A stretch of DNA of 64,000 bases from Escherichia phage A5-4: sequence record OP744025. One strand, written 5' to 3'. The position numbers and the translations under genes were made by a program. Every line of letters starts with the position of its first letter. The first letter of the stretch is position 1. This document shows, one piece after another, positions 2,206-54,362 of this stretch. Under the pieces are notes generated by a model. The model saw only the letters and a list, made by a program, of their open reading frames with translations. It had not been told where the DNA came from and ran no database searches.

Positions 2206-3381
2206 TCAAAACGGAATATCGTCGTCAAAATCCATATCATCTACAGACATATTCACATGGCCTTCGATATCAGGTGTAGGTGAATCTTCTGCTGACGGAG
2301 TTAACTGCGGTTCCGGCTCAGGTTTCTTTTCTTCTTTCTTAGGAGTTGAAGCACCGTTACGGATCTTATCTTCCAGTTGACAGATGAATCGGAAATTCTC
2401 TTCAGTCTTAGCAATAAACGTTTCAATGTTATTACTTCCCCAACGGGCAGAAAGAATACCACACTGGCCTAAACGAGCACCAAAAGAATAATCATCCATA
2501 GATTTAAACTCTTCGCGAAGTTTTGCTTTAATGGAGTCCATCGCTGCAAGAACTTGCTCTACAACAATACCCTGATTTGCGATCGTTTCATTCGGGAACA
2601 TTGCATCTGTGATAGACAGTGCATTACCTAAACGAATGGGGAGATCATCCTTACCTTTACCTGAACGAGAACCTGTTCCGGTGTTTGCACCTTTTGGACC
2701 ATATGCTTTAAAGCCAGTTACAGTACCATCTTCTGCACGAACACCTGCAATACGACCACCTTCTGAAATCTGACCTGCTTGTTCATCAGTAAGATTTACA
2801 GTAACTTCTGTGCCATCTTCCAGCTTAACAACTACCTTATTGCCTTCGATAGATGTGATATCACCATAAATCTTCTTAGCTGCACCACCAGACGGCTTTT
2901 GCTGCTGTTGGGAACCACTTGATTGCTGCTGTTGCTGACGAGGCTCACGAGCACCGGATGCGTCAGTAATTTTGATACGTGCTTTCTTACCTTCTGTAGA
3001 AGAACCTTGACTACCATCTTCTTTGGTATAGGTCTTGATAACAACAGGTAAACGAATTTTCATACCCTCTTTAAGATCAGTGTAACCACCTTCAGGATTT
3101 TTAATCTGGAACTGATTCTCATACTTCAGGTTTTTAACTTCACCCTCACCAAAAGAAATCCATGCTTGATCTTCACCTTCTTTAAGAAGAACCGCATAGC
3201 GGTGGGTATTGTTAATGCTTTTCTGCTGACCAGTATTCTTGTCTTTGAAGGTAGTCACTCGTGGGCTACCATCTCCATTAATACGTTTGATCATGATACG
3301 TTCAATCGTACCTGCTGCGATGTTTACTGTGGTATCGGAAACAGCATCGTATACAGCATTGATAACTTTAACTTCAGACAT
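2206..3381 (-). CDS. putative single-stranded DNA-binding protein
   Basis: 391 aa. C-terminus DDMDFDDDIPF is an SSB-type acidic tail; Gln/Ser-rich flexible linker (EPRQQQQQSSGSQQQQ); lies in the replication gene block. Confidence 0.5.
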   Translation of the reverse strand: MSEVKVINAVYDAVSDTTVNIAAGTIERIMIKRINGDGSPRVTTFKDKNTGQQKSINNTHRYAVLLKEGEDQAWISFGEGEVKNLKYENQFQIKNPEGGYTDLKEGMKIRLPVVIKTYTKEDGSQGSSTEGKKARIKITDASGAREPRQQQQQSSGSQQQQKPSGGAAKKIYGDITSIEGNKVVVKLEDGTEVTVNLTDEQAGQISEGGRIAGVRAEDGTVTGFKAYGPKGANTGTGSRSGKGKDDLPIRLGNALSITDAMFPNETIANQGIVVEQVLAAMDSIKAKLREEFKSMDDYSFGARLGQCGILSARWGSNNIETFIAKTEENFRFICQLEDKIRNGASTPKKEEKKPEPEPQLTPSAEDSPTPDIEGHVNMSVDDMDFDDDIPF

Positions 3382-5569: not shown

Positions 5570-6178
5570 TCAATCACAACTGCTTGAAGAACTACTACTG
5601 CTACTGTCAGAAGAATAACTATCATATGAAGATGAGCTTTCATACGAACTTGATCGACTTGAAGAACAGTAAGAACTTGAACTACTTGTACGATCTTCAC
5701 TGGAGGACATTACAGCAGCATACGTTGCCACACCACCTAAAGCTGCCACCTGAGGATCAACCTGGCTAGTTCCATATCCGTTTGGAGAGTCGCTCATTTT
5801 ACGTGGCGCTGCCCGACGTGCCTGATCAATATATTGTCGCTTTGCCTTCGGTGGTAATTTCTTACCTTGAGCATAAGACGGCAGTTCAACACCCTTCAGT
5901 TGTTCATCCAAAGGTTTCGGCGGCGTAGCCTGTGATTTTGGTCGTTCAACAGAGATATCAACAACCTTCATCGTCTTATCTTTGATGTTTAACCCAACCA
6001 ATACCTCATTTTCTTTTAATGGTTCTTCTAAAGATCGTGTTTCAACTGGACTGAATTTAACGCTTGCAGTTTCTTGACGTTGTTCAGCTTGCTTTGCGAT
6101 ATACTTATCGATCGCCGCAGTTTCTACTTCCAGCGGAATAAATAATGATTTTACCCAAGCAACAAACTTCTTGATCAT
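5570..6178 (-). CDS. hypothetical protein with Ser-rich C-terminal tail
   Basis: 202 aa; low-complexity C-terminus SSSSSSYCSSSRSSSYESSSSYDSYSSDSSSSSSSSSCD. Confidence 0.5.
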   Translation of the reverse strand: MIKKFVAWVKSLFIPLEVETAAIDKYIAKQAEQRQETASVKFSPVETRSLEEPLKENEVLVGLNIKDKTMKVVDISVERPKSQATPPKPLDEQLKGVELPSYAQGKKLPPKAKRQYIDQARRAAPRKMSDSPNGYGTSQVDPQVAALGGVATYAAVMSSSEDRTSSSSSYCSSSRSSSYESSSSYDSYSSDSSSSSSSSSCD

Positions 6179-8948: not shown

Positions 8949-9326
8949 TTATACTCCAAATGTGGATTTGATTTCAGCAATAACCTCATGCACATTGTTT
9001 TCGTTTACTTCAAATGTGTAGGACGTTGGTTTAAGGAACGTCTGAGGTGAAACATTAACAAAGAATTCAAATTCATCATCAAAAATTTCAAAGTATTTTC
9101 CAGGTGTTGATTCTTGGCTTTTGAAAACAGTACCATCTTCCATAGTAACAGAAGAAACAGATTTTTCACCAAGGGTGTATGTTTTTAGCTCGTCAACAAC
9201 GAAACTGGGGCCGTGGCGACGGAGTATTTCAACCATAGTTCGGTTAGCTCCACAAATACCAGTACGCTTAATAAATAACTCTTCACACCGAGGATTGAGA
9301 ATATAAGTTTTTCCTACTTGCATCAT
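8949..9326 (-). CDS. hypothetical protein, member 3 of tandem paralog triplet
   Basis: 125 aa; N-terminus MxVGKTYxLNP and C-terminus EVIxxIKSTF shared with the next two genes. Confidence 0.55.
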   Translation of the reverse strand: MMQVGKTYILNPRCEELFIKRTGICGANRTMVEILRRHGPSFVVDELKTYTLGEKSVSSVTMEDGTVFKSQESTPGKYFEIFDDEFEFFVNVSPQTFLKPTSYTFEVNENNVHEVIAEIKSTFGV

Positions 9327-9336
9327 TACAATCTCC

Positions 9337-9696
9337 TTATGCTAAGTTAAATGTGGATTTGATCAGGTCAATAACCTCTTGTGCGTTGCTCTCCGACACA
9401 GATACCTGAATAATTTTAAGGTCGCTGACCTCTTCAAAGTATTCGAACTCAGATTCACGAAGTTCAAAGTACATTGCCCCACAGCCCACACTGAATGAAT
9501 CACACCCTACAGCGCCATCTTCTGTTGTGATGTTATTAACATACTCATCACCTTCGATCATGCTCATGTTGTTAACAATAAATCGTGGCCCGTGCTCATC
9601 CAGAAAAGAAACAATCTCGTGATTGTAACTTGGGTCAGCCTTAATAAATTTGTCTACGAGTTTTGGATTAAGTTTATAAGTTTTACCCACTTCCAT
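9337..9696 (-). CDS. hypothetical protein, member 2 of tandem paralog triplet
   Basis: 119 aa; clearly similar to 9708..10082 (MExGKTYxLN, HGPxFxVNN, YFELxESEF, VSxSNAQExxDLIKxTFNLA). Confidence 0.6.
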   Translation of the reverse strand: MEVGKTYKLNPKLVDKFIKADPSYNHEIVSFLDEHGPRFIVNNMSMIEGDEYVNNITTEDGAVGCDSFSVGCGAMYFELRESEFEYFEEVSDLKIIQVSVSESNAQEVIDLIKSTFNLA

Positions 9697-9707
9697 TTTT
9701 GTTCTCC

Positions 9708-10082
9708 TTACGCCAGGTTAAAGGTAGCTTTAATCAAATCTAAAGTTTCTTGTGCATTACTACGAGAGACGGCAACCTGAATAATAACAGGGTCTTCATC
9801 TTCCCCGACTTCTTTGAAGAAGGGGAATTCACTCTCTGCAAGTTCAAAGTATACACACTTGTTACCTTCGCGGTCGTGAAAAACGTCACTACCTAAAGTA
9901 CCATCTTCAAATATGACATTGTTAACATATCTAACATTATCATAAAAGTAGGTGTTGTTGACAACAAATTTAGGACCGTGTTTATAAAGAAGATCAGCCA
10001 ATTCTTGATTGTAGCTAGGGTCCATACTAATAAAAGCTTTTTCTAAGTCTTTATTAAGAATATAAGTTTTTCCGATTTCCAT
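9708..10082 (-). CDS. hypothetical protein, member 1 of tandem paralog triplet
   Basis: 124 aa; see 9337..9696. Confidence 0.6.
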   Translation of the reverse strand: MEIGKTYILNKDLEKAFISMDPSYNQELADLLYKHGPKFVVNNTYFYDNVRYVNNVIFEDGTLGSDVFHDREGNKCVYFELAESEFPFFKEVGEDEDPVIIQVAVSRSNAQETLDLIKATFNLA

Positions 10083-11129: not shown

Positions 11130-11429
11130 TTAGTGACAATCTCCCCAGCTGTATCCACAAAGGTATTCTCCAGTTATCATCACTGGTGATTTCATCATCT
11201 TAGCTGCTTGTTCGACACAACGAACAACCATCTCTCCTACAGGGCAGTATGTAATAGTGAAGATACCATTTTCATCTGGATCACACTTAAACTTCCCTTC
11301 CTTCACGCAATGACCATCCAAGATCATTTTCTTAGCCAAGCAAGCTTCTACAAATTTCTTCGCGTCAGCTTCATTGTCAAAGGTCCAAGTCTTCTTAAAC
11401 TTGTGTGGCACTTCAAGCTGGTATTCATC
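11130..11429 (-). CDS. DNA polymerase (family A, T7 gp5-like), exon 2
   Basis: Frame of ORF 11130..11480 from GAT at 11429: DEYQLEVPHKF... ending ...GYSWGDCH, matching the family A C-terminus (T7 ...NWAICH); completes motif C when joined to exon 1. Confidence 0.7.
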   Translation of the reverse strand, partial: DEYQLEVPHKFKKTWTFDNEADAKKFVEACLAKKMILDGHCVKEGKFKCDPDENGIFTITYCPVGEMVVRCVEQAAKMMKSPVMITGEYLCGYSWGDCH

Positions 11430-12201
11430 CAAAAGTTTAACGAGGTCGTTACTCTCGCCCACATCATTACATGTTGCCATACGTTTTCACGTATGGATCG
11501 GACTATATCACCATCCTTTTCAGGATGCTCCCCATTTCGACGGCACTTGCTCGCCTACGCCTCTCGGCTAGTCTCTGAACGTTAGGACCATGTGTAGTCA
11601 CAAGAGATGTGTGTCCAGTTTTTACGGATTTTTATGGACCTTACCACGTTGTAAGGATAACCCATATCCCGAATCTGTGCACTTCCATAACCTTGCCCCA
11701 GGAAGTTGCAAATCTCTCTAACCTCTTCTTCGGTAACTATACTTCTGGCGTTATCAACCCCTGTTGCTGAACGACATTTATCAGCAAAGGTTTTCTTGAT
11801 ATTTCCACCACGAGTTGTCCATTGGAGGTTTGAATAGTGGTTATTCCTTTTGTCAGGCCACTTATGATCAACCTCCGGCAAACCTTCAGGGTTTGGTACA
11901 AAACACTCTGCCACCAAAACGTGAACAGCCTTTGTAGTCGTCCTTTTGTTGAGATACAGACTTACAATAAGATACCCACGTCCATTATCAACTGCCGCCA
12001 TTGGTTTCCCTCGACGACCTATAATGGTCCCGTCTTCATAAACCTTGTAACCGAAATAATCTTTATATTCCACATGATCCTCTTCGCTGCTGATTAACAT
12101 AGTCTCATACTAACTCACACTTGAATTAATATCAACCTTAGTCTTCCAGCAATTAAAGGAGTTTTCGATGTGAGTTACCTCACAAAGCCACAATGTTACT
12201 T
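11430..12201 (-). mobile_element. group I intron carrying an HNH homing endonuclease gene, inserted in polymerase motif C
   Basis: 772 nt between codons H and D of HDE. 5-prime exon ends in U, intron ends in G. Contains P-like AAUUGCUGGAAGACU (12139-12153), Q-like AAUCAGCAGC (12086-12095), R-like GUUCAGAGACUA (11566-11581) and S-like GAUAUAGUCC (11500-11511). Confidence 0.7.
11582..12100 (-). CDS. HNH homing endonuclease (intron-encoded)
   Basis: 172 aa; GYLIVSL...AVHVLVAECF...VDHKWPDKRNNHYSNLQWTTRGGN is an HNH-3 type signature; lies between the two polymerase exons. Confidence 0.75.
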   Translation of the reverse strand: MLISSEEDHVEYKDYFGYKVYEDGTIIGRRGKPMAAVDNGRGYLIVSLYLNKRTTTKAVHVLVAECFVPNPEGLPEVDHKWPDKRNNHYSNLQWTTRGGNIKKTFADKCRSATGVDNARSIVTEEEVREICNFLGQGYGSAQIRDMGYPYNVVRSIKIRKNWTHISCDYTWS

Positions 12202-14085
12202 ATGGTAATAGATAATACGTCTAACGCCTTCATCATACCAACCTTTCTTGACCAACTGCCAGTGCAGGAGGATACCCACCAAGTCAAACAGTGCAGCACC
12301 ACCATTCTGCTGATAAGCATTAAGCAATGAGTGTTTGGAACGAGTGTAGATCTTACGCCCATCCAGACCATAGATGAATCGCTTACCGTTAGCTTCCCAA
12401 AACTTCTCTAATGCTTCTTTACGACCTTTCAAGCCGATGTTGCTATCCCAGAATGCGTCGATTACTGCTTGGGCTTTCTCAAGACTGATACCAAGCATTG
12501 ATGCAATCTTCGCTGCCTGTGCCCCGTACATGATTCCGTATGTCACCCCTTTACCTTCGCCACGAGAAACCTTCTTCCCTGCTGCTTTGGTATATGCTTC
12601 TGCGTTTCGGGAGTGAGCATCTCCAGATTCCATGATACGAAGATAAGCACCGCCATCGAAATCATAAGCGCCCCATGCTGCGATCATGCCTTCCAAGTTT
12701 GAACCGTCGATACCTACCTGATATTTACCCTCAGAGGCTCTGAATAGTTCACGCATCTCTTTACCGAGAAGAACTTTCTCATCCGGCTTAGGTACGTTTG
12801 CTACGATCGTATGCTTACGACGACCTGTGTTAGTTATTCCACTATAACGGGCCGGAAGTTTACCGTCAACTCGTAGACGTGGATGGTTAAGCCATCCGGT
12901 ATCAACCTTCTCTTCTTTCAGCGGGTCAAGAACAGATCGTCGGTTACGTAAAGACAGCCATTTAACAATCTGTTTAGCCATTTCACCATCTACTCGCTCA
13001 AGGTTAGGGCAAAGACCTTGCTGATCCTTAAGTTGCGGGGATGTTGGCAATGCACGAGCTTTCTTACGGAAAAACTTGAACATCTTTTCTTTATCTGACC
13101 ACTGCTTAGGTGTGATCGCCAAGCTTTTCAGAATCAGATCACGATACTCCGTCTGATCCAAATCTTCAATGTATTGACGAACAATCAGATCAACCTCACT
13201 ATCAGGACGCTGTTTCTTGAACTGATCTTTAGTTGCATCCTTTGTACGCCAAATTGTTGGGACCCACCCTGCATCACGGATCAGGAACTTCTTAACGTCG
13301 TCCTGGTTACCAATACGCATCGGAATCATAATGTCCGGCATCTTTTGTTCTTTGATATCCATCAAAGCACGAGCCATATCTTCCGGCGGCAAAGGAACAA
13401 GTCCTTGCTGCTTAACGTTTTGTGCACGGATAAAATCACCCATTTTGGATTCATCCTCTACACCGTGCTCAACACAATACTTGATCGCGGCGGCAGTAAG
13501 AGATCCGTCAGCCTTAAACGGCTTACTTGGTGCACCTTTAAACTCCAAGGCTTCCCAATTGATATTATAACCTAACTTCTCTAACCATTTCCAACCTGTA
13601 CCGGAAAGAGATCCATCACCCTTGAAAGGTTTAGATGGGAATGTCGGTTGTGCTGATTTCGACATCTCTTTCTTCGGCAACTTAGGTTCAACCTCTAACT
13701 CAATGTCTGTCATCATCTTATCGATACGATCACGAAGCTTGAGTGCTTTTTCTTCATCAAATGAAACACCCTGAATTTCTTGCTCAATCATCAGGTAGTC
13801 AGTCAACATACCTCGACGCAGGGCATTCTTCCAGTTGATCATTTTATACTTCTTCTGATCTTTGTCTGTTTCATCCTTATACATGAAGCGTTTATCATCC
13901 GGCATAGATTCACAAGAGATCTCTTTCATCAGAGCATCCCATACCATTTCGTTGATAATTACGTCTTCAATAATACGATCGCAATACTTCCAAAGTGGAA
14001 GGCCACGCCAATCTTCGATCGCCACTTTCTGGTTAGCTACTCGCATACCCCAAGCTTCAAGCCCGTGTGGCCCTACAGGCTTCAT
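12202..14085 (-). CDS. DNA polymerase (family A, T7 gp5-like), polymerase part, exon 1
   Basis: HGLEAWGMRV matches T7 HALEAWGYRLG; Exo III-like YCDRIIEDV; motif B region SRGEGKGVTYGIMYGAQAAKI; reading frame ends ...RRIIYYH at the intron junction (track ORF 12196..14085). Confidence 0.8.
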
Positions 14086-14531
14086 TTTACCGTGACGGGG
14101 TTCTTTACCATCTCAGGACAACCGCGAGGCAGAGGGCGATCTGGATACAGTGTACGGGACATTGAAAGTGTATCGAAGATGTTTACTTGTTTACCATTAA
14201 TCGTACCCATGCAACCAGGGTCTGCAAACATATCGTAAGTTGTTCCAAGCATCTTCTTAAACAACTGGAGGTCGTAGCCGAAGATGTTGTGGATAGCAAT
14301 TGCTTTAGGCTCTGTGACAAACCACTCGTTTAATTCCTCAATGGTCCGAATCTTAAAGTTTTTACCTTTAGATTGGATAAATTTAACAGCTTGATCGTAA
14401 CCTTCCCGCTGGGGATCAAGAAAGATGTTCCAGTTATCTTTTTTATACTCTTTAAACAAGACGCAGTGAATCAGATCAACCTCTGTCAATAGACCATTCG
14501 CTTCCGCATCTCCAATAAATAAGCCTTTCAT
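14082..14531 (-). CDS. DNA polymerase 3-prime-5-prime exonuclease N-terminal part (Exo I/II), separate frame
   Basis: Exo I FIGDAEANGL and Exo II AIHNIFGYD align with T7 gp5 DIEAN / HNGHKYD. Likely start ATG 14531 with GAAGGAG RBS. Stop overlaps the next ORF start (ATGA at 14082-14085). Confidence 0.7.
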   Translation of the reverse strand: MKGLFIGDAEANGLLTEVDLIHCVLFKEYKKDNWNIFLDPQREGYDQAVKFIQSKGKNFKIRTIEELNEWFVTEPKAIAIHNIFGYDLQLFKKMLGTTYDMFADPGCMGTINGKQVNIFDTLSMSRTLYPDRPLPRGCPEMVKNPVTVK

Positions 14532-14696
14532 TTTTTCTCCTTCTTCAAGCTCCAACTAGACTAAAACAAAGCCCAGCCGGAGGTATGACCCTTCGGCTAG
14601 GTTATCAAAAGTGTCGGTATCCTTCATCAATAAAATAAAGCATCACTAACAGGGCGAATACCCCACATAAGAAGATCAAGCCCAATAAGGTGGGCA

Positions 14697-14972: not shown

Positions 14973-15214
14973 ATACTTGCTTCTTTGAGGCGATCTTTAG
15001 CCTTAGATAAGCAATCAGATGCAAAAAGCACGGAATCTAGATCCCCTTCGGGAATCGAAGAGTCATTAGCCAGTCGATTATATTCCTCAATAATCTCGTC
15101 TTCTAATGCTTTTAAAATAAGACCTAAACGAATTTCAGCATCTTTAATGGCATTCACCTTACCGATTTTTTCATCGGTGTGTGGTTTGTAGCCCTTAATG
15201 TCATCAATAGCCAT
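14930..15214 (-). CDS. hypothetical protein
   Basis: 94 aa ORF; start may be internal. Confidence 0.45.
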   Translation of the reverse strand: MAIDDIKGYKPHTDEKIGKVNAIKDAEIRLGLILKALEDEIIEEYNRLANDSSIPEGDLDSVLFASDCLSKAKDRLKEASMWACRGVFRPEEKY

Positions 15215-15696
15215 TACCAGTCCTCCTCTGTTTGTTCATACTCTGAAGGGGTGATGAAGTAATTCTGACCCCGCTTGCACTGGTTGAAAGTCCCAACATA
15301 CCAAGTACCGATATCCATGTTGATGAAAGTTTCTTCTTGAACAAAGATCAGATCAGCAAGATTATTGTCTGATCGTTGAGTCGCTAATAAAATATGCTCA
15401 AAATCTGCTAATGTCAGGTTATAACAGAAGCCGTCTTCGTCTTCCATGATTGCAACAACAGAACTACGCCCTTGGGTAAATTTACGAAACTGTAGACGTA
15501 AATGGCGATGCTCATGATCATTAGTCTTAACCTTTTTTCGATTTTCAAAGTATTCTTCGGAATAGTGTGGATGCTTTAATTTCAGTTTTTCAATTTCCTC
15601 AATAGAAAGAGCGTCCTTATCCCAACCAGTAAACCACTTACCATTATCATTAAATACCGCAGGGTATTTACGCTTACTTAAATCTTTAAACATCAT
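15214..15696 (-). CDS. hypothetical protein
   Basis: Track ORF 15214..15756 trimmed to internal ATG (MMFKDLSKRKYP...) to reduce overlap; start uncertain. Confidence 0.45.
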   Translation of the reverse strand: MMFKDLSKRKYPAVFNDNGKWFTGWDKDALSIEEIEKLKLKHPHYSEEYFENRKKVKTNDHEHRHLRLQFRKFTQGRSSVVAIMEDEDGFCYNLTLADFEHILLATQRSDNNLADLIFVQEETFINMDIGTWYVGTFNQCKRGQNYFITPSEYEQTEEDW

Positions 15697-16018
15697 AGTC
15701 CTCCCCATAAATATCTTGAATTTTTGAAACCAGGTATTCAGGATCACTACCATCATACCACACTTCTACGAAAACCTTTTGGGAATCCTTAACGATCTTT
15801 GCCCCTACTCTTTCAATCCCCTTAAAGAAAGATTGTAAGATGTAATCATCCAGCAAGTTCACCCCGTAAGCATCGTGGAGAGATTTCTCATCGTGAACAT
15901 ACACAACCATCTTACCATCGTAGGTGAGTTGGATATGGGGATCATCTTCCCAAGCAATAGCCGGAGAATCCGGCTCAAGCTTTGCGATAACCCCAATCGT
16001 CAAGCAGTTGTCACTCAC
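15686..16018 (-). CDS. hypothetical protein
   Basis: 110 aa acidic protein; ATGA-type overlap with the upstream gene. Confidence 0.5.
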   Translation of the reverse strand: MSDNCLTIGVIAKLEPDSPAIAWEDDPHIQLTYDGKMVVYVHDEKSLHDAYGVNLLDDYILQSFFKGIERVGAKIVKDSQKVFVEVWYDGSDPEYLVSKIQDIYGEDYDV

Positions 16019-20409: not shown

Positions 20410-21516
20410 TCAGAAAGGTGCGTCGTCGTCCCAATCATCCGGCTCTGTGTCCGGCACATCAGGAATATCACCTGTGGATTCAACGATACTTTGTTGTTCC
20501 CACGTAGGTTCTTCTGAAGGTTGTTCCATTTCTTCCATAACCTTCTTGATCTCTTCCTCTTGCTCACGCAGGAAGTTATCATCCGGCTCAGGAATATCTT
20601 CCTCTTTAATATCTGAACGAGTGAGATCACTGTTTTGTTCAGACAGAGGTTGAATCTCTGCTGCTTTAGGCTTAAAGTCTGGAGAACGATGATCATCTTC
20701 TGGATGAGCGGCATACCACTCACGAAGAGTTTCATAAGGACTCTCTAAGAAGCCCTCTGGCGGTTCCAGATAATCACCCGTGTCAATGTCATAGAACACA
20801 GGGAATTTACCAGCACGACCGTGTTTACGGTCATCCAGAATAACAAAGTAAGAAGTGTTACGTTGTTTCATCGGGAGTTCTGGATCTTTGTTACGTTCAA
20901 TACCCCACATGTAATAAGTGTTACGCATCATTGCACGGCTACCAGCAAACTGCGCTGACTGGACTTGACCACCAAATTCATGAGGCTTACCAGATTCAGG
21001 CTTGTTAAGGTGACAGAAGCAATAATAGGTAAAGCCAAGCTCTTTTGCCAGTTTGGAGATCTCATCAGAGAATCGTTCCAGTTCCTGGTTAGCTTCGGAA
21101 GCACTCATACCTTGCACAAGACGAGTGATTGGGTCAATAAAGATATCTTCACAACCTTCTACGATCACTGCGTGACGGATAGCACCTTTCAGTTCATCCC
21201 ATACTGCACGACCATAGTTGTTATAATAGATAACACTATCACCAACTTCATCAGTAGCCTTGATCAGTTCTTCTTGCTTAAAGTAGCCACGTTGACCTTC
21301 AAATACTTCATTACCCCAAATGTCACGGAAAGTTCCATCTTCTTGAGGAATCATTACCTTTTCTGCGTTAACAAAGTCTTTATGATAACGCTTACCTGCG
21401 ATCTTTTTACAGGTAATTTCGTTCTCTTCTTCAAACTTAAACACCGCAGCCTTTGACTTCTCAATACCTGTAATGTGTTCTACCATCTGGTTAAGAAGTT
21501 CAGACTTACCCATTTT
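20410..21516 (-). CDS. primase-helicase (T7 gp4-like), helicase domain, exon 2
   Basis: Begins within Walker A (..KMGKSELL); CFCHLNKPESGKPHEFGGQVQSAQFAGSRAMMRNTYYMWGIERN aligns with T7 gp4 [32 protein letters not shown]...IALERN; acidic C-terminus ...DDWDDDAPF. Exon start uncertain by a few nt. Confidence 0.75.
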   Translation of the reverse strand, partial: KMGKSELLNQMVEHITGIEKSKAAVFKFEEENEITCKKIAGKRYHKDFVNAEKVMIPQEDGTFRDIWGNEVFEGQRGYFKQEELIKATDEVGDSVIYYNNYGRAVWDELKGAIRHAVIVEGCEDIFIDPITRLVQGMSASEANQELERFSDEISKLAKELGFTYYCFCHLNKPESGKPHEFGGQVQSAQFAGSRAMMRNTYYMWGIERNKDPELPMKQRNTSYFVILDDRKHGRAGKFPVFYDIDTGDYLEPPEGFLESPYETLREWYAAHPEDDHRSPDFKPKAAEIQPLSEQNSDLTRSDIKEEDIPEPDDNFLREQEEEIKKVMEEMEQPSEEPTWEQQSIVESTGDIPDVPDTEPDDWDDDAPF

Positions 21517-22268
21517 CACCGTTATGTTCGACAGGGTTCGCTACTCCCTGCCCGTTCTCTTACGAACTGCTACATGTCCCCATGCAGACCAGACTATATC
21601 TTCAACCTGTTTCCAGGTGCTATGCACTTCGGACCGCTTGGCCCTACTCTACTCGATTCAAGAGTCTAGCTCTTGTCTTTCGATAGTCGTTGCTCCTTCC
21701 TCTCAACCGCTTTGTAATTTGTCTTACGGTATCTCTGTGTATCCCAAAATGCTCTGCAATTTCTTTTTGTTGAAGCGTGGTATTAATAACCATTTCGTAA
21801 ACCTGCTTCTCAAAATCATCAGCATATCTATTTGGATTTCTTCTACCGTTGGCCCAACCATGATCGACATTTTCTTTCGTGGTTGTCCATTCCAAATTAA
21901 CATCGTTGTTGTTTTGCCTGTCGCTATCTTTATGATTAACAACAGGAAGGTTATGAGGGTTATCAACGTAGTGTTCAGCCACCAATTGGTGAATAAATCT
22001 ACGTGTAACCTTACCATCTTTACTTAACGAAACTCTAAGATACCCTGAACTATTGGTATCCGGTTTGAGTTTTTTAAGCTTCCGGTAAACATCTCCCCTT
22101 CGGGTAATGATGTAATTTTCAAAACCTTTTATTCTTTTCATTTCCCCCCCTTGCAATAAACAAAGAGGTTGAGAGGCTTGGATCAGGATTACGTGTTCTA
22201 CGCTTCCCCTGAGTTCACATAGTATTTAGTCGAGGCATCTCTGCCAAGGCTGGCTAGACTTAATGTTT
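21517..22268 (-). mobile_element. group I intron carrying an HNH homing endonuclease gene, inserted in helicase Walker A codons
   Basis: About 750 nt between ...FIGAG and (K)MGKS...; S-like AAGAUAUAGUCU (21591-21606); R-like CAACGACUAUCG (21681-21695); candidate P/Q in the 5-prime part (CUCAGGGGAAGCG, AAUCCUGAUCC). Boundaries approximate. Confidence 0.6.
21644..22156 (-). CDS. HNH homing endonuclease (intron-encoded)
   Basis: 170 aa; GYLRVSL...FIHQLVAEHYVDNPHNLPVVNHKDSDRQNNNDVNLEWTTTKEN is an HNH signature; probable true start at the internal ATG (MKRIKGF). Confidence 0.75.
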   Translation of the reverse strand: MQGGEMKRIKGFENYIITRRGDVYRKLKKLKPDTNSSGYLRVSLSKDGKVTRRFIHQLVAEHYVDNPHNLPVVNHKDSDRQNNNDVNLEWTTTKENVDHGWANGRRNPNRYADDFEKQVYEMVINTTLQQKEIAEHFGIHRDTVRQITKRLRGRSNDYRKTRARLLNRVE

Positions 22269-23204
22269 ACCAGCACCGATGAAGTAACCTTCACCTGGAC
22301 GACGACCCAAGGTAAGCTTGGTCATGGTGGGCCAAGGGAACTTCTTGCCGAGTTTAGGGATCTCATGTGCCTTTTCGCGGAACTGTGAATAAGTCGAGAA
22401 ACCATCCGGCACATATTCCTTTGGCTTCATTGCAGCCCAAAACAACTGATCAGAAAGTCCTTTGTTATACATGTCGCAAGGGTCCATATCTTCTGGAATG
22501 TCCACGACCTTCATTTGTGGAATTACAGAGTATACCGCTGCAACTGCATCTTTACCTTTCATGATCCCTTTGGCCTTCTCTGCTTCTGTCGCACGGTCAG
22601 CATCGAAAGCTACGATAATCTCTTCAAACTTACTCAGAAGCTTATAGTTATTCTTCTGTGATAAGTTTTGCACGGCATTGGATGTACCGTTAGAGATAGA
22701 TACAACTGTGAAGTTTGGTTTACGAGTGGAACCATCCTTCGGTTTGTACTTCTCTGTCAATACCTGCCACAAGATTGCAGCATCATATTCACCTTCAGTG
22801 ATAAAGATCATACGTTTGGAAGACTTATTTGCACCTTCCAGCCCAAACATATCACAAGCCACAGATTGGAAACCAATAGTTGTAAAGTGACCTTTCTGTT
22901 GCTTAGGGATCGTAAGATCACGCTTCTTAAAACCTACAACCTTACCTTCTAATGTATACGGGAAATAATGTGCTTCTGGTGTCATACCGTCTTTAGCTGA
23001 CAGTTTGGTACGAATACCAAATCGTTTAGCTGTCTTTTCGTCGATACCGCGCTCAGGGATACTTTTGCACGGGTAAGTCAATACGTCTTCAACTGTTTCT
23101 TCTACACGAGACACACCACCACCATAATTACGTGCTACTGAAGCTTTAGGATTTTTATGTCCAAACTTATAACCGCCAAACAAACTTTCGCCAATAGTGC
23201 TCAT
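22269..23204 (-). CDS. primase-helicase (T7 gp4-like), primase (TOPRIM) domain, exon 1
   Basis: KRMIFITEGEYDAAIL, VVSISNGTSNA, IIVAFDADRATEAE, EYVPDGFSTY and TLGRRPGE align with T7 gp4 TEGEIDMLTV, VVSLGHGASAA, ILMFDMDEAGRKA, PWIPDGVVS, TLGARGGE. No N-terminal Cys4 zinc-binding domain. Frame stops 3 codons after the proposed splice site. Confidence 0.75.
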
Positions 23205-23361: not shown

Positions 23362-23670
23362 TCAAAAACCTCCAGTTTCTTCATCAAATGCCTGACTTAC
23401 TTGTGCATCACGGATACGTTCTTCAATACAACGATACACTACTTCATACGGGATATCAAGAGCAATTTCTTCACCATCTTCATAAACAGTGATTGAAAAA
23501 ATATCTAAGTAATCTTCGGCATCCCAATCTGACTCTGCATCTGGAATACCTTTGTACATAACAACCTCTACTTCAACAACCACCTCTTTACCGATCGCCT
23601 TATGAAAATGTGTGAATTCGAAGTTTACTGTACGCATTTTATTTTCTCCTGATAATTTATATTTATTCAA
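23362..23670 (-). CDS. hypothetical protein
   Basis: 102 aa acidic ORF. Confidence 0.45.
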   Translation of the reverse strand: MNKYKLSGENKMRTVNFEFTHFHKAIGKEVVVEVEVVMYKGIPDAESDWDAEDYLDIFSITVYEDGEEIALDIPYEVVYRCIEERIRDAQVSQAFDEETGGF

Positions 23671-45367: not shown

Positions 45368-45619
45368 ATGGCTAACAAAACTAAAACCACTAAAACTTAT
45401 AACGGTCACAAAAACAAAAATCATTGGAACGTTTCTCTATGGCTTAACAATGATTCATCACTTTACCAGCTGGCGAAAGAATTTATTAACGCTAACACTA
45501 ATCGTAATGATGCGGCGCGGGATATGATGATTTTTCTGGAACAAACTGGACAATATAAAACTCCAGACGGTTTCAAGTACAGCACTACGGCGATCCGTGC
45601 TGCAATGGTTGGAATGTAA
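45368..45619 (+). CDS. hypothetical protein (paralog of 47186..47425)
   Basis: 83 aa; shares HKNKxHWNVSLW...TPDGFKYSTTAIRAAMVGM with 47186..47425. Confidence 0.6.
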   Translation: MANKTKTTKTYNGHKNKNHWNVSLWLNNDSSLYQLAKEFINANTNRNDAARDMMIFLEQTGQYKTPDGFKYSTTAIRAAMVGM

Positions 45620-47185: not shown

Positions 47186-47425
47186 ATGGCTAAATCTAAA
47201 ACTTTCAACGATCACAAAAACAAAACTCATTGGAATGTTTCCTTGTGGATTAATAATGGTGAAGCACTGTATCGGCTTGCTCAAAATTGCATTGCACAAA
47301 GTAAAACTAAAGATATTGCTGCGGAATGTATGTACCGCAGATTAAAAGCGAACGGCACTACAACAACGCCGGACGGATTTAAGTATAGCACCACTGCGAT
47401 CCGTGCCGCGATGGTTGGAATGTAA
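47186..47425 (+). CDS. hypothetical protein (paralog of 45368..45619)
   Basis: 79 aa; see 45368..45619. Confidence 0.6.
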   Translation: MAKSKTFNDHKNKTHWNVSLWINNGEALYRLAQNCIAQSKTKDIAAECMYRRLKANGTTTTPDGFKYSTTAIRAAMVGM

Positions 47426-53993: not shown

Positions 53994-54111
53994 TCGCCAC
54001 CTAACAGCCTAAATAGTAGGAGGTAATGCAATCCCCTACTCAATGAGAATGGAGCGCCCTGGCTTATGCTGGGGCGTTTTATGTTGTATGGAAATAATTT
54101 AGAAAATAAGC

Positions 54112-54140
54112 TTGACGCCGGGAATGTTAGCGCGTATAGT
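54112..54140 (+). promoter_or_regulatory. promoter plus stem-loop cassette
   Basis: TTGACG (54112-54117), 17-nt spacer, TATAGT (54135-54140); hairpin gcggcaatagtgccgc at 54153-54168. Confidence 0.6.
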
Positions 54141-54188
54141 TTATCACATAGGGCGGCAATAGTGCCGCTCATAATTGGAGTAGAGATC

Positions 54189-54362
54189 ATGGCAATTCTG
54201 GCGAAAGATGTAAAAGTAGGTATGACCTTTAATGATTGTGAAGTTGTCTATGTTGCCGCGCACGGCGACGGTATCATTACCATTGAAACAGAACACTTTG
54301 ATCGAGATTGTGGCGAGATGGAATATTTTTCTTGCGAGTATCATGAAAACGATGAGTTTTAA
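54189..54362 (+). CDS. hypothetical small protein
   Basis: Track ORF 54066..54362 trimmed to ATG 54189 (MAILAKDVKVG...) because the upstream codons overlap the promoter cassette. Confidence 0.45.
   Translation: MAILAKDVKVGMTFNDCEVVYVAAHGDGIITIETEHFDRDCGEMEYFSCEYHENDEF

What the first reader, a model, noticed from the sequence alone, without database searches (positions are those of the whole stretch)
20410..20440. Helicase and SSB-like protein both end in an acidic tail with a terminal Phe
The helicase ends ...PDDWDDDAPF and the SSB-like protein (2206..3381) ends ...DDMDFDDDIPF. In the T7 replisome the acidic C-terminal tails of gp4 and gp2.5, each ending in Phe, dock on the polymerase. The same arrangement here suggests a T7-style replisome, with the SSB tail identical in its last six residues to the E. 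coli SSB tip.
Basis: partly seen in the sequence, partly recalled or inferred. Interest (0 to 1): 0.4.

Follow-up and report, generated by a model that had tools for sequence, protein, structure and literature searches.

The report
Replisome docking tails on helicase and SSB
In this E. coli phage, both the replicative primase-helicase and an unusual single-strand-DNA-binding-like protein end in a conserved acidic tail finishing in Pro-Phe; this resembles the phage T7 replisome, except that the SSB-like tail copies the host SSB tip exactly.

Summary
ORF 20410..21519(-) ends PDDWDDDAPF and ORF 2206..3381(-) ends DDMDFDDDIPF. The last nine residues of the second, not six, equal the E. coli SSB tip MDFDDDIPF.

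The "helicase" is exon 2 of a 681-aa T7 gp4-like primase-helicase. A 749-nt group I intron carrying an HNH endonuclease gene splits it inside the Walker A motif.

Both tails are conserved while their linkers drift. All 27 long-tail helicase homologues end in PF, and 97 of 120 homologues end in F. Of 92 homologues of the 391-aa protein, 75 end in PF, mostly as D-F-D-D-D-I-P-F.

The 391-aa protein has no Pfam SSB or gp2.5 match. It belongs to a large uncharacterised phage family (phrog_4477). Its model shows an N-terminal OB fold, a small beta domain, a helical domain and a disordered acidic tail. A 2026 preprint describes the rV5-type orthologue as SSB-like, with this C-tip, and as a trigger of the DRT10 defence system.

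Related contigs pair gp4-like helicases ending in F with either a gp2.5-like or a phrog_4477 SSB ending in PF or PW, so a T7-style arrangement is plausible. Docking on the polymerase is not shown, and T7's basic patches are not conserved here. This is a new member of a known kind, of moderate interest.

The parts
20413..20442 (-). Tip of the primase-helicase tail, PDDWDDDAPF, followed by the stop codon at 20410..20412
   Evidence: In 27 of 27 long-tail homologues the last two residues are P and F, position -5 is D/E in 26 of 27 and position -6 in 23 of 27.
20413..20745 (-). 111-aa acidic, proline-rich tail of the helicase after the conserved EPPEGFL motif (37 D/E, 9 K/R, 13 P). I infer that it is a disordered linker; its structure was not modelled.
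   Evidence: The homologous tails have a median length of 104 aa, with 29% D/E, 5% K/R and 12% P, and their sequence is not conserved.
20410..21519 (-). Exon 2 of the gp4-like primase-helicase: the SF4 helicase domain from VKMGKS of Walker A, plus the tail
   Evidence: DnaB_C E=6e-6; phrog_239 E=8e-75; alignment to the intron-less A73 allele.
21520..22268 (-). Group I intron of 749 nt interrupting the Walker A codons (GAG|VKMGKS). It carries the HNH/HTH homing-endonuclease ORF 21644..22156(-).
   Evidence: Phages A73 and LTH01 have the uninterrupted gene. Rfam Intron_gpI scores 24.6 bits, E=6e-4, at 21570..21760, with the GAAGAUAUAGUC core. HNH_3 and HTH domains are detected. Exon 1 ends in U and the intron ends in G. 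The boundary is ambiguous by 1 nt.
22269..23204 (-). Exon 1 of the primase-helicase: Toprim primase domain and linker up to GAG of Walker A. There is no N-terminal Cys4 zinc finger.
   Evidence: Toprim_2 E=0.002; phrog_239 E=5e-75. BLAST to T7 gp4 starts at gp4 residue 80. The spliced product is 681 aa.
2206..3381 (-). 391-aa SSB-like protein of family phrog_4477
   Evidence: phrog_4477 E=4e-81; no Pfam SSB match; no PDB sequence match; 92 homologues; 205 representatives in the profile search.
2962..3363 (-). N-terminal beta-barrel (aa 7-140) with an OB fold
2701..2877 (-). Small SH3/OB-like beta domain (aa 169-227)
   Evidence: AF2 model; Myosin_N SH3-like hit below the Pfam cut-off. The preprint on Bas52_0087 describes a second OB fold.
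2359..2643 (-). Four-helix domain (aa 247-341), probably the oligomerisation module
   Evidence: AF2 model. The DRT10 escape mutations D252V and Y351C in the rV5-type orthologue map to a predicted oligomerisation interface. D252 aligns with D245 here, which is invariant.
2209..2349 (-). Disordered P/E-rich linker (aa 345-382) and the tip MDFDDDIPF (aa 383-391, nt 2209..2235)
   Evidence: pLDDT is below 50 for residues 345-375. The tip columns D384, P390 and F391 are invariant, and F385, D386, D388 and I389 are at least 90% conserved, while the linker is not conserved.
11130..14555 (-). Family A DNA polymerase, the candidate docking partner. In this window it is in three pieces: 14082..14555, 12202..14085 and 11130..11429. 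A 772-nt intron (11430..12201) carrying the HNH ORF 11582..12100 lies between the last two.
   Evidence: DNA_pol_A E=2e-11; phrog_17 and phrog_8888; 29% identity to T7 gp5, E=6e-21. The intron-less 876-aa UPEC06 allele and the 884-aa A7_1 allele define the junctions.

Best explanation
Both C termini are short linear docking motifs, an acidic run followed by x-Pro-Phe-COOH, held at the end of long flexible acidic linkers. They belong to a T7-type replication module. The helicase is a gp4 homologue and its tail is the counterpart of the gp4 tail (compare DWSNDTDF in T7 with DWDDDAPF here). In this lineage the tail is lengthened to about 110 residues, so a hexamer, as gp4-type helicases form (not tested here), would carry six long tethers. 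The 391-aa protein is the phage's ssDNA-binding protein. It is a functional analogue of gp2.5, not a homologue, built from an OB fold, a small beta domain, a helical oligomerisation domain and a disordered tail. Its nine-residue tip is identical to the host SSB tip. Proposed mechanism: the two tails plug into basic and hydrophobic pockets on replisome partners, most likely the phage Pol A. This would tether the polymerase to the helicase and let the polymerase engage and displace the SSB, as in T7. Because the SSB-like tip equals the host tip, the same protein can also engage, or compete for, host SSB-interacting proteins such as exonuclease I (SbcB). Shown here: the sequences, the homology to gp4 and gp5, the conservation and co-occurrence of the tails, and the OB fold in a predicted model. 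Inferred: ssDNA binding, the identity of the docking partners, and any host interaction.
For: Tails read directly. T7 tails read from NC_001604. Homology to gp4 at E=1.6e-29 and to gp5 at E=6e-21. Helicase tail: 97 of 120 homologues end in F, and 27 of 27 long-tail homologues end in PF with D/E at -5 and -6. SSB-like tail: 75 of 92 homologues end in PF, mostly D-F-D-D-D-I-P-F, and 102 of 141 further representatives end in PF, while the linkers are unconserved. It also appears in L014 (helicase ...EFEEF, phrog_4477 protein ...DDDIPW, Pol A 44% identical) and in L012 (helicase ...GHSF, gp2.5-like SSB ...SEAPF, 704-aa Pol A). OB fold. No other SSB candidate was found in the window or in the parts of relative A7_1 lying outside it. 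T7 mechanism: gp4 tails bind gp5 basic patches (PMC12593628); the gp2.5 tail anchors on the front basic patch, and a DTDF peptide is bound in PDB 6P7E (PMC12339929). The rV5-type orthologue Bas52_0087 is predicted to be SSB-like with the C-tip FDDDIPF and is genetically linked to SbcB and DRT10 (bioRxiv 10.64898/2026.04.29.721553; orthology).
Confidence: 0.55

Rival explanations
1. Host mimicry is the main function. The 391-aa protein carries an exact copy of the host SSB tip in order to recruit or sequester host SSB-interacting proteins (exonuclease I, RecQ, PriA, the chi subunit and others) on phage ssDNA. The SSB-tip-like helicase tail does the same at the fork. The phage polymerase is not the docking target.
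For: The tip is nine of nine residues identical to E. coli MDFDDDIPF. The DFDDDIPF tip recurs in family members annotated as Cronobacter, Pectobacterium, Serratia and Salmonella phages. The orthologue Bas52_0087 is needed to trigger DRT10, a system tuned by the SSB-tip-binding exonuclease SbcB. The T7 polymerase basic patches are absent.
Against: The helicase tail is inherited from the gp4 family, where it binds the phage polymerase. In helicase homologues position -3 is P, A or C rather than the I of SSB tips. The phage encodes its own polymerase, helicase, ligase and exonuclease, so it has less need of host replisome factors. This rival is not exclusive of the best explanation.
Confidence: 0.3
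2. The tails are mainly autoregulatory. The acidic tail folds back onto the protein's own DNA-binding surface (the OB cleft of the SSB-like protein, or the DNA channel or subunit interface of the helicase). It would tune ssDNA affinity, cooperativity or oligomerisation, with no specific partner pocket.
For: From established knowledge not tested here, this behaviour is known for T7 gp2.5 and E. coli SSB tails. The initial-structure methods of PMC12339929 describe a C-terminal tail in the gp2.5 groove in the AF2 model. In the model here, pLDDT rises slightly at the tip (block mean 59 for residues 381-390, against 33-49 in the linker).
Against: Electrostatic fold-back needs acidity but not an invariant Pro-Phe-COOH. 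The strict conservation of the last two residues in both families is the signature of a pocket-binding motif.
Confidence: 0.1
3. Coincidence: two unrelated acidic C termini that happen to end in Phe.
For: Acidic C termini are common in phage proteins. Two other ORFs in the window have acidic termini ending in an aromatic residue.
Against: Only these two of 148 ORFs end in PF, and both tips are conserved across hundreds of homologues. The tail of the 180-aa ORF that looked similar is not conserved, which shows the test can fail.
Confidence: 0.01

Closest known systems
Phage T7 replisome: gp4 primase-helicase, gp5 Pol A and gp2.5 SSB, with acidic C-terminal tails ending in Phe
   Same: The helicase and polymerase are homologous. 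Both the helicase and the SSB candidate have acidic tails with a terminal Phe. The helicase tail keeps the D-W...F spacing of gp4 (DWSNDTDF against DWDDDAPF).
   Different: The SSB here is not a gp2.5 homologue. The helicase tail is about 110 aa against about 17 aa in T7, and it ends in PF rather than DF. The gp5 basic patches and thioredoxin-binding domain are not conserved. The helicase lacks the N-terminal zinc finger. Both the helicase and the polymerase genes are interrupted by HNH-carrying introns.
Bacterial SSB (PF00436) with an intrinsically disordered linker and the SSB-Ct tip MDFDDDIPF
   Same: An OB fold at the N terminus, a disordered linker and an identical nine-residue tip.
   Different: There is no detectable sequence homology. 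The protein has extra beta and helical domains, is 391 aa against 178 aa, and probably oligomerises through the helical domain rather than through an OB tetramer.
Bas52_0087, the SSB-like trigger of the DRT10 (UG17) defence system in an rV5-type phage (bioRxiv 10.64898/2026.04.29.721553)
   Same: Same family: the near-identical bas57_0085 is 27% identical to the window protein, E=3e-17, has the same domain order and ends AFDDDIPF. D252 aligns with the invariant D245.
   Different: It is a divergent orthologue from another genus. rV5-type records were not seen among the listed tblastn hits of this helicase at E<=1e-20 (60 of 393 records shown). The preprint, as far as I read it, does not discuss a matching helicase tail.
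Group I introns with homing endonucleases in phage replication genes (for example in DNA polymerase genes of T7-like and SPO1-like phages; from my own knowledge)
   Same: The introns sit in the most conserved motifs (helicase Walker A, polymerase motif C) and carry HNH ORFs. Intron-less alleles exist in sister phages.
   Different: This concerns the gene structure, not the tails.

Membership tests
T7 gp4-like (SF4) primase-helicase | Significant sequence homology to gp4 across the primase and helicase domains | tested here: met
   BLASTP 26% identity over 515 aa, E=1.6e-29; phrog_239 'DNA primase/helicase' E about 1e-75 for both exons.
T7 gp4-like (SF4) primase-helicase | Intact Walker A (P-loop) and a DnaB-type helicase domain | tested here: met
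   These are intact only after removal of the intron: GAG|VKMGKS. DnaB_C scores E=6e-6, 26.2 bits, just under the 27-bit cut-off.
T7 gp4-like (SF4) primase-helicase | N-terminal Cys4 zinc-binding domain of the primase | tested here: not met
   The first 60 residues hold a single Cys, and the alignment to gp4 starts at gp4 residue 80. This resembles Twinkle-type proteins. It does not affect the helicase assignment but puts primase template recognition in doubt.
T7 gp4-like (SF4) primase-helicase | Acidic C-terminal tail ending in an aromatic residue | tested here: met
   ...DDWDDDAPF. It is conserved: 97 of 120 homologues end in F.
T7 gp4-like (SF4) primase-helicase | The tail binds basic patches of the cognate Pol A | not testable with these tools
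   The basic-patch residues of gp5 are not conserved in the alignment. No complex prediction or binding assay was available.
Bacterial SSB family (Pfam PF00436) | Sequence match to the SSB OB-domain profile | tested here: not met
   No Pfam SSB hit. No PDB sequence hit. tblastn of E. coli SSB gives E=1.2.
Bacterial SSB family (Pfam PF00436) | OB fold of the nucleic-acid-binding type | tested here: met
Bacterial SSB family (Pfam PF00436) | Disordered linker plus the conserved acidic tip D-F-D-D-D-I-P-F | tested here: met
   pLDDT is below 50 for residues 345-375. The tip is identical to MDFDDDIPF.
Bacterial SSB family (Pfam PF00436) | Binds ssDNA | not testable with these tools
   No biochemical data exist for any member of phrog_4477 that I could find.
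T7 gp2.5-like SSB / annealing protein (phrog_112) | Sequence homology to gp2.5 | tested here: not met
   BLASTP E=8.2 against T7 gp2.5. The PHROG scan gives only phrog_4477. tblastn with the L012 gp2.5-like protein finds nothing in the genome.
phrog_4477 (uncharacterised phage SSB-like family) | Full-length profile match and shared domain order with the C-terminal [ILV]-P-F tip | tested here: met
   E=4e-81 over residues 4-391; alignment A1; 205 representatives.
Group I intron (Rfam RF00028) | Match to the catalytic-core covariance model at the gathering score | tested here: inconclusive
   24.6 bits against the 50-bit gathering score, E=6e-4 in a 1-kb search. Support comes from the precise absence in A73 and LTH01, a 5' exon ending in U, an intron ending in G and an internal HNH ORF.

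The most novel reading that the evidence does not exclude
The replicative helicase of this phage lineage has evolved its gp4-type tail into an SSB-tip look-alike (D-W-D-D-D-A-P-F on a 110-residue acidic tether, six per hexamer if the helicase forms a gp4-type hexamer). The helicase and a non-canonical, host-mimicking SSB would then compete for one and the same tip-binding pocket. That pocket could lie on the phage polymerase, or on host SSB-interacting proteins such as exonuclease I. This would give a hand-off hub that also explains why the SSB-like family is sensed by SbcB-dependent defence systems such as DRT10.
Probability: 0.2. Interest if true: 0.6.

Novelty: new member of a known kind. 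Interest (0 to 1): 0.4.

Why it matters
If the tails work as proposed, the T7 way of holding a replisome together, through acidic Phe-terminated tethers on the helicase and the SSB, extends to about 140-kb myophages. It would also survive replacement of the SSB by an unrelated protein family. That would make the tail, rather than the SSB fold, the conserved part of the interface. The work also gives a first functional hypothesis for phrog_4477, a large uncharacterised phage protein family with 205 representatives at 50% clustering. Nearly all of its complete members carry a host-type SSB tip, and one member was recently linked to activation of the DRT10 defence system. Because the tip equals the host's, the protein is a natural probe, or competitor, for the host SSB interactome. 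The terminal Phe gives a simple one-codon genetic test in the culturable sister phages A7_1, A73 and W70.

Tried and rejected
1. A third tail. The 180-aa ORF 15214..15756(-) next to the polymerase ends ...EQTEEDW, but its homologues in phiTE, PVP-SE1 and Klebsiella phage DP end ...EPVEVGDV or ...EPVEVR. The tail is not conserved, so I rejected it. ORF 54066..54362(+) (...HENDEF) and ORF 23362..23670(-) (...DEETGGF) were not pursued beyond PHROG hits of unknown function.

2. Sequence-level identification of the 391-aa protein. Pfam gave only a sub-threshold Myosin_N SH3 hit. The PDB phmmer search gave nothing. A search with the tail alone returned only spurious protocadherin repeats.

3. Transfer of the T7 docking sites. 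The alignment of five polymerases shows that the front basic patch loop and the thioredoxin-binding-domain loops are not conserved, so no partner surface could be named.

4. A classical SSB or gp2.5-like gene elsewhere in the genome. tblastn of E. coli SSB (sequence from memory), T7 gp2.5 and the L012 gp2.5-like protein found nothing below E=0.2 in the window or in the two A7_1 segments outside it.

5. Rfam at gathering thresholds found no RNA family in the window. The intron appeared only in an E-value search.

I did not use the second structure job.

Full report
**1. The observation**

The window comes from a Vequintavirinae-like E. coli myophage. The helicase region is 96.6% identical to phage A7_1 (OP795442), and its other close relatives are A73, W70, LTH01 and UPEC06.

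ORF 20410..21519(-) ends ...TEPDDWDDDAPF and ORF 2206..3381(-), 391 aa, ends ...VDDMDFDDDIPF. The E. coli SSB tip is the nonapeptide MDFDDDIPF (PMC7145534). Translating NC_001604 confirms the T7 comparison: gp4 ends ...STDWSNDTDF and gp2.5 ends ...EADEDGDF.

In a crude set of 148 ORFs from the window, only these two end in PF. Only four combine a net-acidic last ten residues with an aromatic terminus.

**2. What the 'helicase' is**

The 369-aa ORF is the second exon of one gene.

- Phages A73 and LTH01 carry an uninterrupted 681-aa 'DNA primase/helicase'.
- Aligning A73 to the window places a 749-nt insertion at 21520..22268(-) inside the Walker A codons, GAG|VKMGKS.
- The insertion holds an HNH plus HTH endonuclease ORF at 21644..22156(-).
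- It matches the Rfam group I intron model weakly: 24.6 bits, E=6e-4, with the GAAGAUAUAGUC core.
- Exon 1 ends in U and the insertion ends in G.

The spliced protein is homologous to T7 gp4, with 26% identity over 515 aa, E=1.6e-29. It has Toprim and DnaB_C signatures and a strong phrog_239 match. It lacks the N-terminal Cys4 zinc finger: there is one Cys in the first 60 residues, and the alignment starts at gp4 residue 80.

**3. Conservation of the helicase tail**

Among the 120 listed homologues, 97 end in F and 102 end in an aromatic residue. They fall into two classes.

- In 27 proteins from genomes of the window's type, a tail of median length 104 aa follows the conserved EPPEGFL motif. 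These tails are 29% D/E, 5% K/R and 12% P. Their sequence is not conserved except at the end. Positions -1 (F) and -2 (P) are invariant in 27 of 27. Position -5 is D/E in 26 of 27 and position -6 in 23 of 27. Position -3 is P, A or C. An aromatic residue often sits at -7 or -8.
- The remaining proteins, mostly about 570 aa, have a tail of about 20 residues that still ends in xF.

The terminal Phe is therefore an old feature of this helicase family. The long acidic tether ending in PF marks the window's lineage.

**4. What the 391-aa protein is**

Sequence methods do not identify it. There is no Pfam SSB match and no PDB sequence match. The only hit is phrog_4477, 'unknown function', at E=4e-81.

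An AlphaFold2 model built on 43 homologues has mean pLDDT 78.8 and shows four parts:

- a beta-barrel (aa 7-140);
- a small beta domain (aa 169-227);
- a four-helix domain (aa 247-341);
- disordered linkers, including residues 345-375 ahead of the tip.

No EcSSB-like or gp2.5-like gene is detectable in the window or in the A7_1 segments outside it. This protein is therefore the only SSB candidate.

A 2026 preprint (bioRxiv 10.64898/2026.04.29.721553) describes Bas52_0087 of an rV5-type phage. It reports predicted SSB-like architecture, a C-tip FDDDIPF, a requirement for triggering the DRT10 defence system, and a link to the SSB-tip-binding exonuclease SbcB. The near-identical bas57_0085 has the reported escape positions D252 and Y351. 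It is 27% identical to the window protein, E=3e-17, with the same domain order. The SSB-like reading therefore has independent, though still predictive and genetic, support.

**5. Conservation of the SSB-like tail**

- Of 92 homologues, down to about 26% identity, 75 end in PF, nearly all as D-F-D-[DE]-D-I-P-F. Fourteen more have that motif followed by a 15-16-residue extension. The rest are fragments.
- In alignment A1, D384, P390 and F391 are invariant. F385, D386, D388 and I389 are at least 90% conserved. The preceding 40 residues are not conserved.
- A profile search of 1.84 billion representatives finds 205 family members. Of the 141 new ones, 102 end in PF. Many are 260-300 aa proteins with an N-terminal domain, the helical domain and the tip. 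None has a Pfam domain.

This is a large uncharacterised phage family defined in part by a host-type SSB tip.

**6. Do the two tails travel together?**

- By matching contig lengths, at least five further genomes hold both a long-tail PF helicase and a phrog_4477 protein ending in IPF. Examples are Salmonella phage SSBI34 and Serratia phage ChuuTotoro.
- An 11-kb environmental contig (L014) holds a gp4-like helicase ending ...DQEFEEF, a Pol A 44% identical to the window's, and a short phrog_4477 protein ending ...EFDDDIPW.
- An 87-kb contig (L012) has a helicase 60% identical to the window's, ending ...GHSF. Instead of a phrog_4477 protein it has a gp2.5-like SSB (phrog_112, E=5e-9) ending ...EEENLSEAPF, together with a 704-aa Pol A.

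So the helicase and Pol A module is constant and the SSB fold has been exchanged. In every case the SSB candidate ends in an acidic run plus an aromatic residue. This is the strongest argument here for a T7-style functional arrangement.

**7. The polymerase**

The Pol A is homologous to T7 gp5, E=6e-21. The T7 surfaces that bind the tails are not conserved. These are the front basic patch K587/K589/R590/R591 (PMC12339929) and the patch near the thioredoxin-binding domain (PMC12593628). Here the front loop is 11-12 residues shorter and keeps one K and one R. The thioredoxin-binding-domain region is replaced by a longer insert with a duplicated SKPFK-x-DGSL motif.

Docking on the polymerase is therefore inferred from analogy only. 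Host SSB-interacting proteins, the helicase itself or the SSB-like OB fold remain possible targets.

**8. Verdict**

The T7 analogy holds for the helicase, which is a homologue with a homologous tail. It is plausible for the SSB-like protein, which is an analogue. The specific claim that both tails dock on the polymerase is untested and lacks the T7 signature residues.

The SSB-like tip is better described as a copy of the host SSB tip.

Both kinds of tail are known (T7 gp4 and gp2.5, and the bacterial SSB tip), and the SSB-like family with this tip has been noted in a preprint. I therefore rate this a new member of a known kind. The SSB-tip-like end of the helicase and the breadth of phrog_4477 are the fresher elements. 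Interest is moderate.

Noticed in passing
window 21520..22268 (-): The primase-helicase gene is split inside its Walker A codons by a 749-nt group I intron carrying an HNH/HTH endonuclease ORF (21644..22156). Sister phages A73 and LTH01 lack it. About 90 nt of the intron's 3' core (around 21520..21650) is 84-88% identical to segments in unrelated phages, lying in other genes. Examples are a Klebsiella Roth32 helicase, the Pectobacterium CB7 ribonucleotide reductase region (the phiTE hit lies under no annotated feature), Vibrio JSF38 and Escherichia phage kvi. This suggests a mobile intron family.
   Followed up: yes
window 11430..12201 (-): The DNA polymerase gene is also interrupted by an insertion of about 772 nt, with HNH ORF 11582..12100. 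It lies exactly between YYH and DEYQL of polymerase motif C. UPEC06 and A7_1 have the uninterrupted gene. I presume this is a second group I intron, but I did not check the RNA structure.
   Followed up: partly
window 14082..14090 (-): Relative to UPEC06 (CACAGGTAAAATGAAG) the window reads CACGGTAAAATGAAG. This 1-nt deletion splits the polymerase into a 157-aa N-terminal exonuclease piece and a 629-aa piece overlapping at ATGA. UPEC06 and A7_1 have one uninterrupted ORF, and the first polymerase ORF of A73 also spans this site. The cause may be a sequencing error, a recent mutation or a site needing frameshifting.
   Followed up: partly
homologues P0007, P0008, P0014, P0015, P0027, P0052, P0053, P0067, P0076, P0079, P0080, P0082, P0083, P0086; P0235, P0245, P0305, P0337: About 15% of the SSB-like family, including Salmonella phage SSBI34, carry a conserved 15-16-residue extension directly after the tip (...DDDIPF-APIGLQYPNHAIYVL). 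This would remove the free Phe carboxylate. The window gene has no such extension; its stop codon is followed by a terminator hairpin. The extension is unexplained. It could be a second motif, a cleaved pro-sequence or a masked tip.
   Followed up: partly
helicase homologues P0113, P0114, P0117, P0124, P0127, P0132, P0188: Several homologous helicase ORFs break off at or just after ...QFAGSRAMMR, and one (P0188, 888 aa) carries a Hint/intein-associated Pfam domain. This helicase gene appears to be a repeated target of introns and inteins at more than one site.
   Followed up: no
L011 7042..7563 (-) = A7_1 102042..102563, outside the window: A third protein of the sister phage (A71_20, 173 aa, phrog_12009 of unknown function, annotated 'ATP synthase gamma chain') ends ...KFIVDEDIPF. 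This is an SSB-tip-like end without a disordered linker. I did not check its conservation.
   Followed up: partly
window 22269..23204 (-): The primase part has Toprim acidic motifs (EGEYD, DADR) but no Cys4 zinc-binding domain, as in Twinkle-type proteins. How primer sites are recognised, or whether it primes at all, is open.
   Followed up: partly
window 12900..13700 (-), polymerase residues about 150-395 of the 629-aa piece: Where T7 gp5 has its thioredoxin-binding domain, this polymerase has a longer unrelated insert containing a duplicated motif (PSKPFKGDGSLSGTGWKWLEKLGY and PSKPFKADGSLTAAAIKYCVEHGV). It may be a different processivity or partner-binding element.
   Followed up: no
window 8949..10082 (-): Three tandem paralogous genes of 119-125 aa (8949..9326, 9337..9696, 9708..10082) begin M-x-[IV]-GKTY-x-LNP and end ...TF[NG][LV]A. 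Their function is unknown.
   Followed up: no
window 5570..6178 (-): A 202-aa ORF has a C-terminal third that is almost pure Ser (...SSDSSSSSSSSSCD).
   Followed up: no
window 45368..45619 (+) and 47186..47425 (+): Two small ORFs end in the identical 14 residues KYSTTAIRAAMVGM, which points to a local duplication.
   Followed up: no
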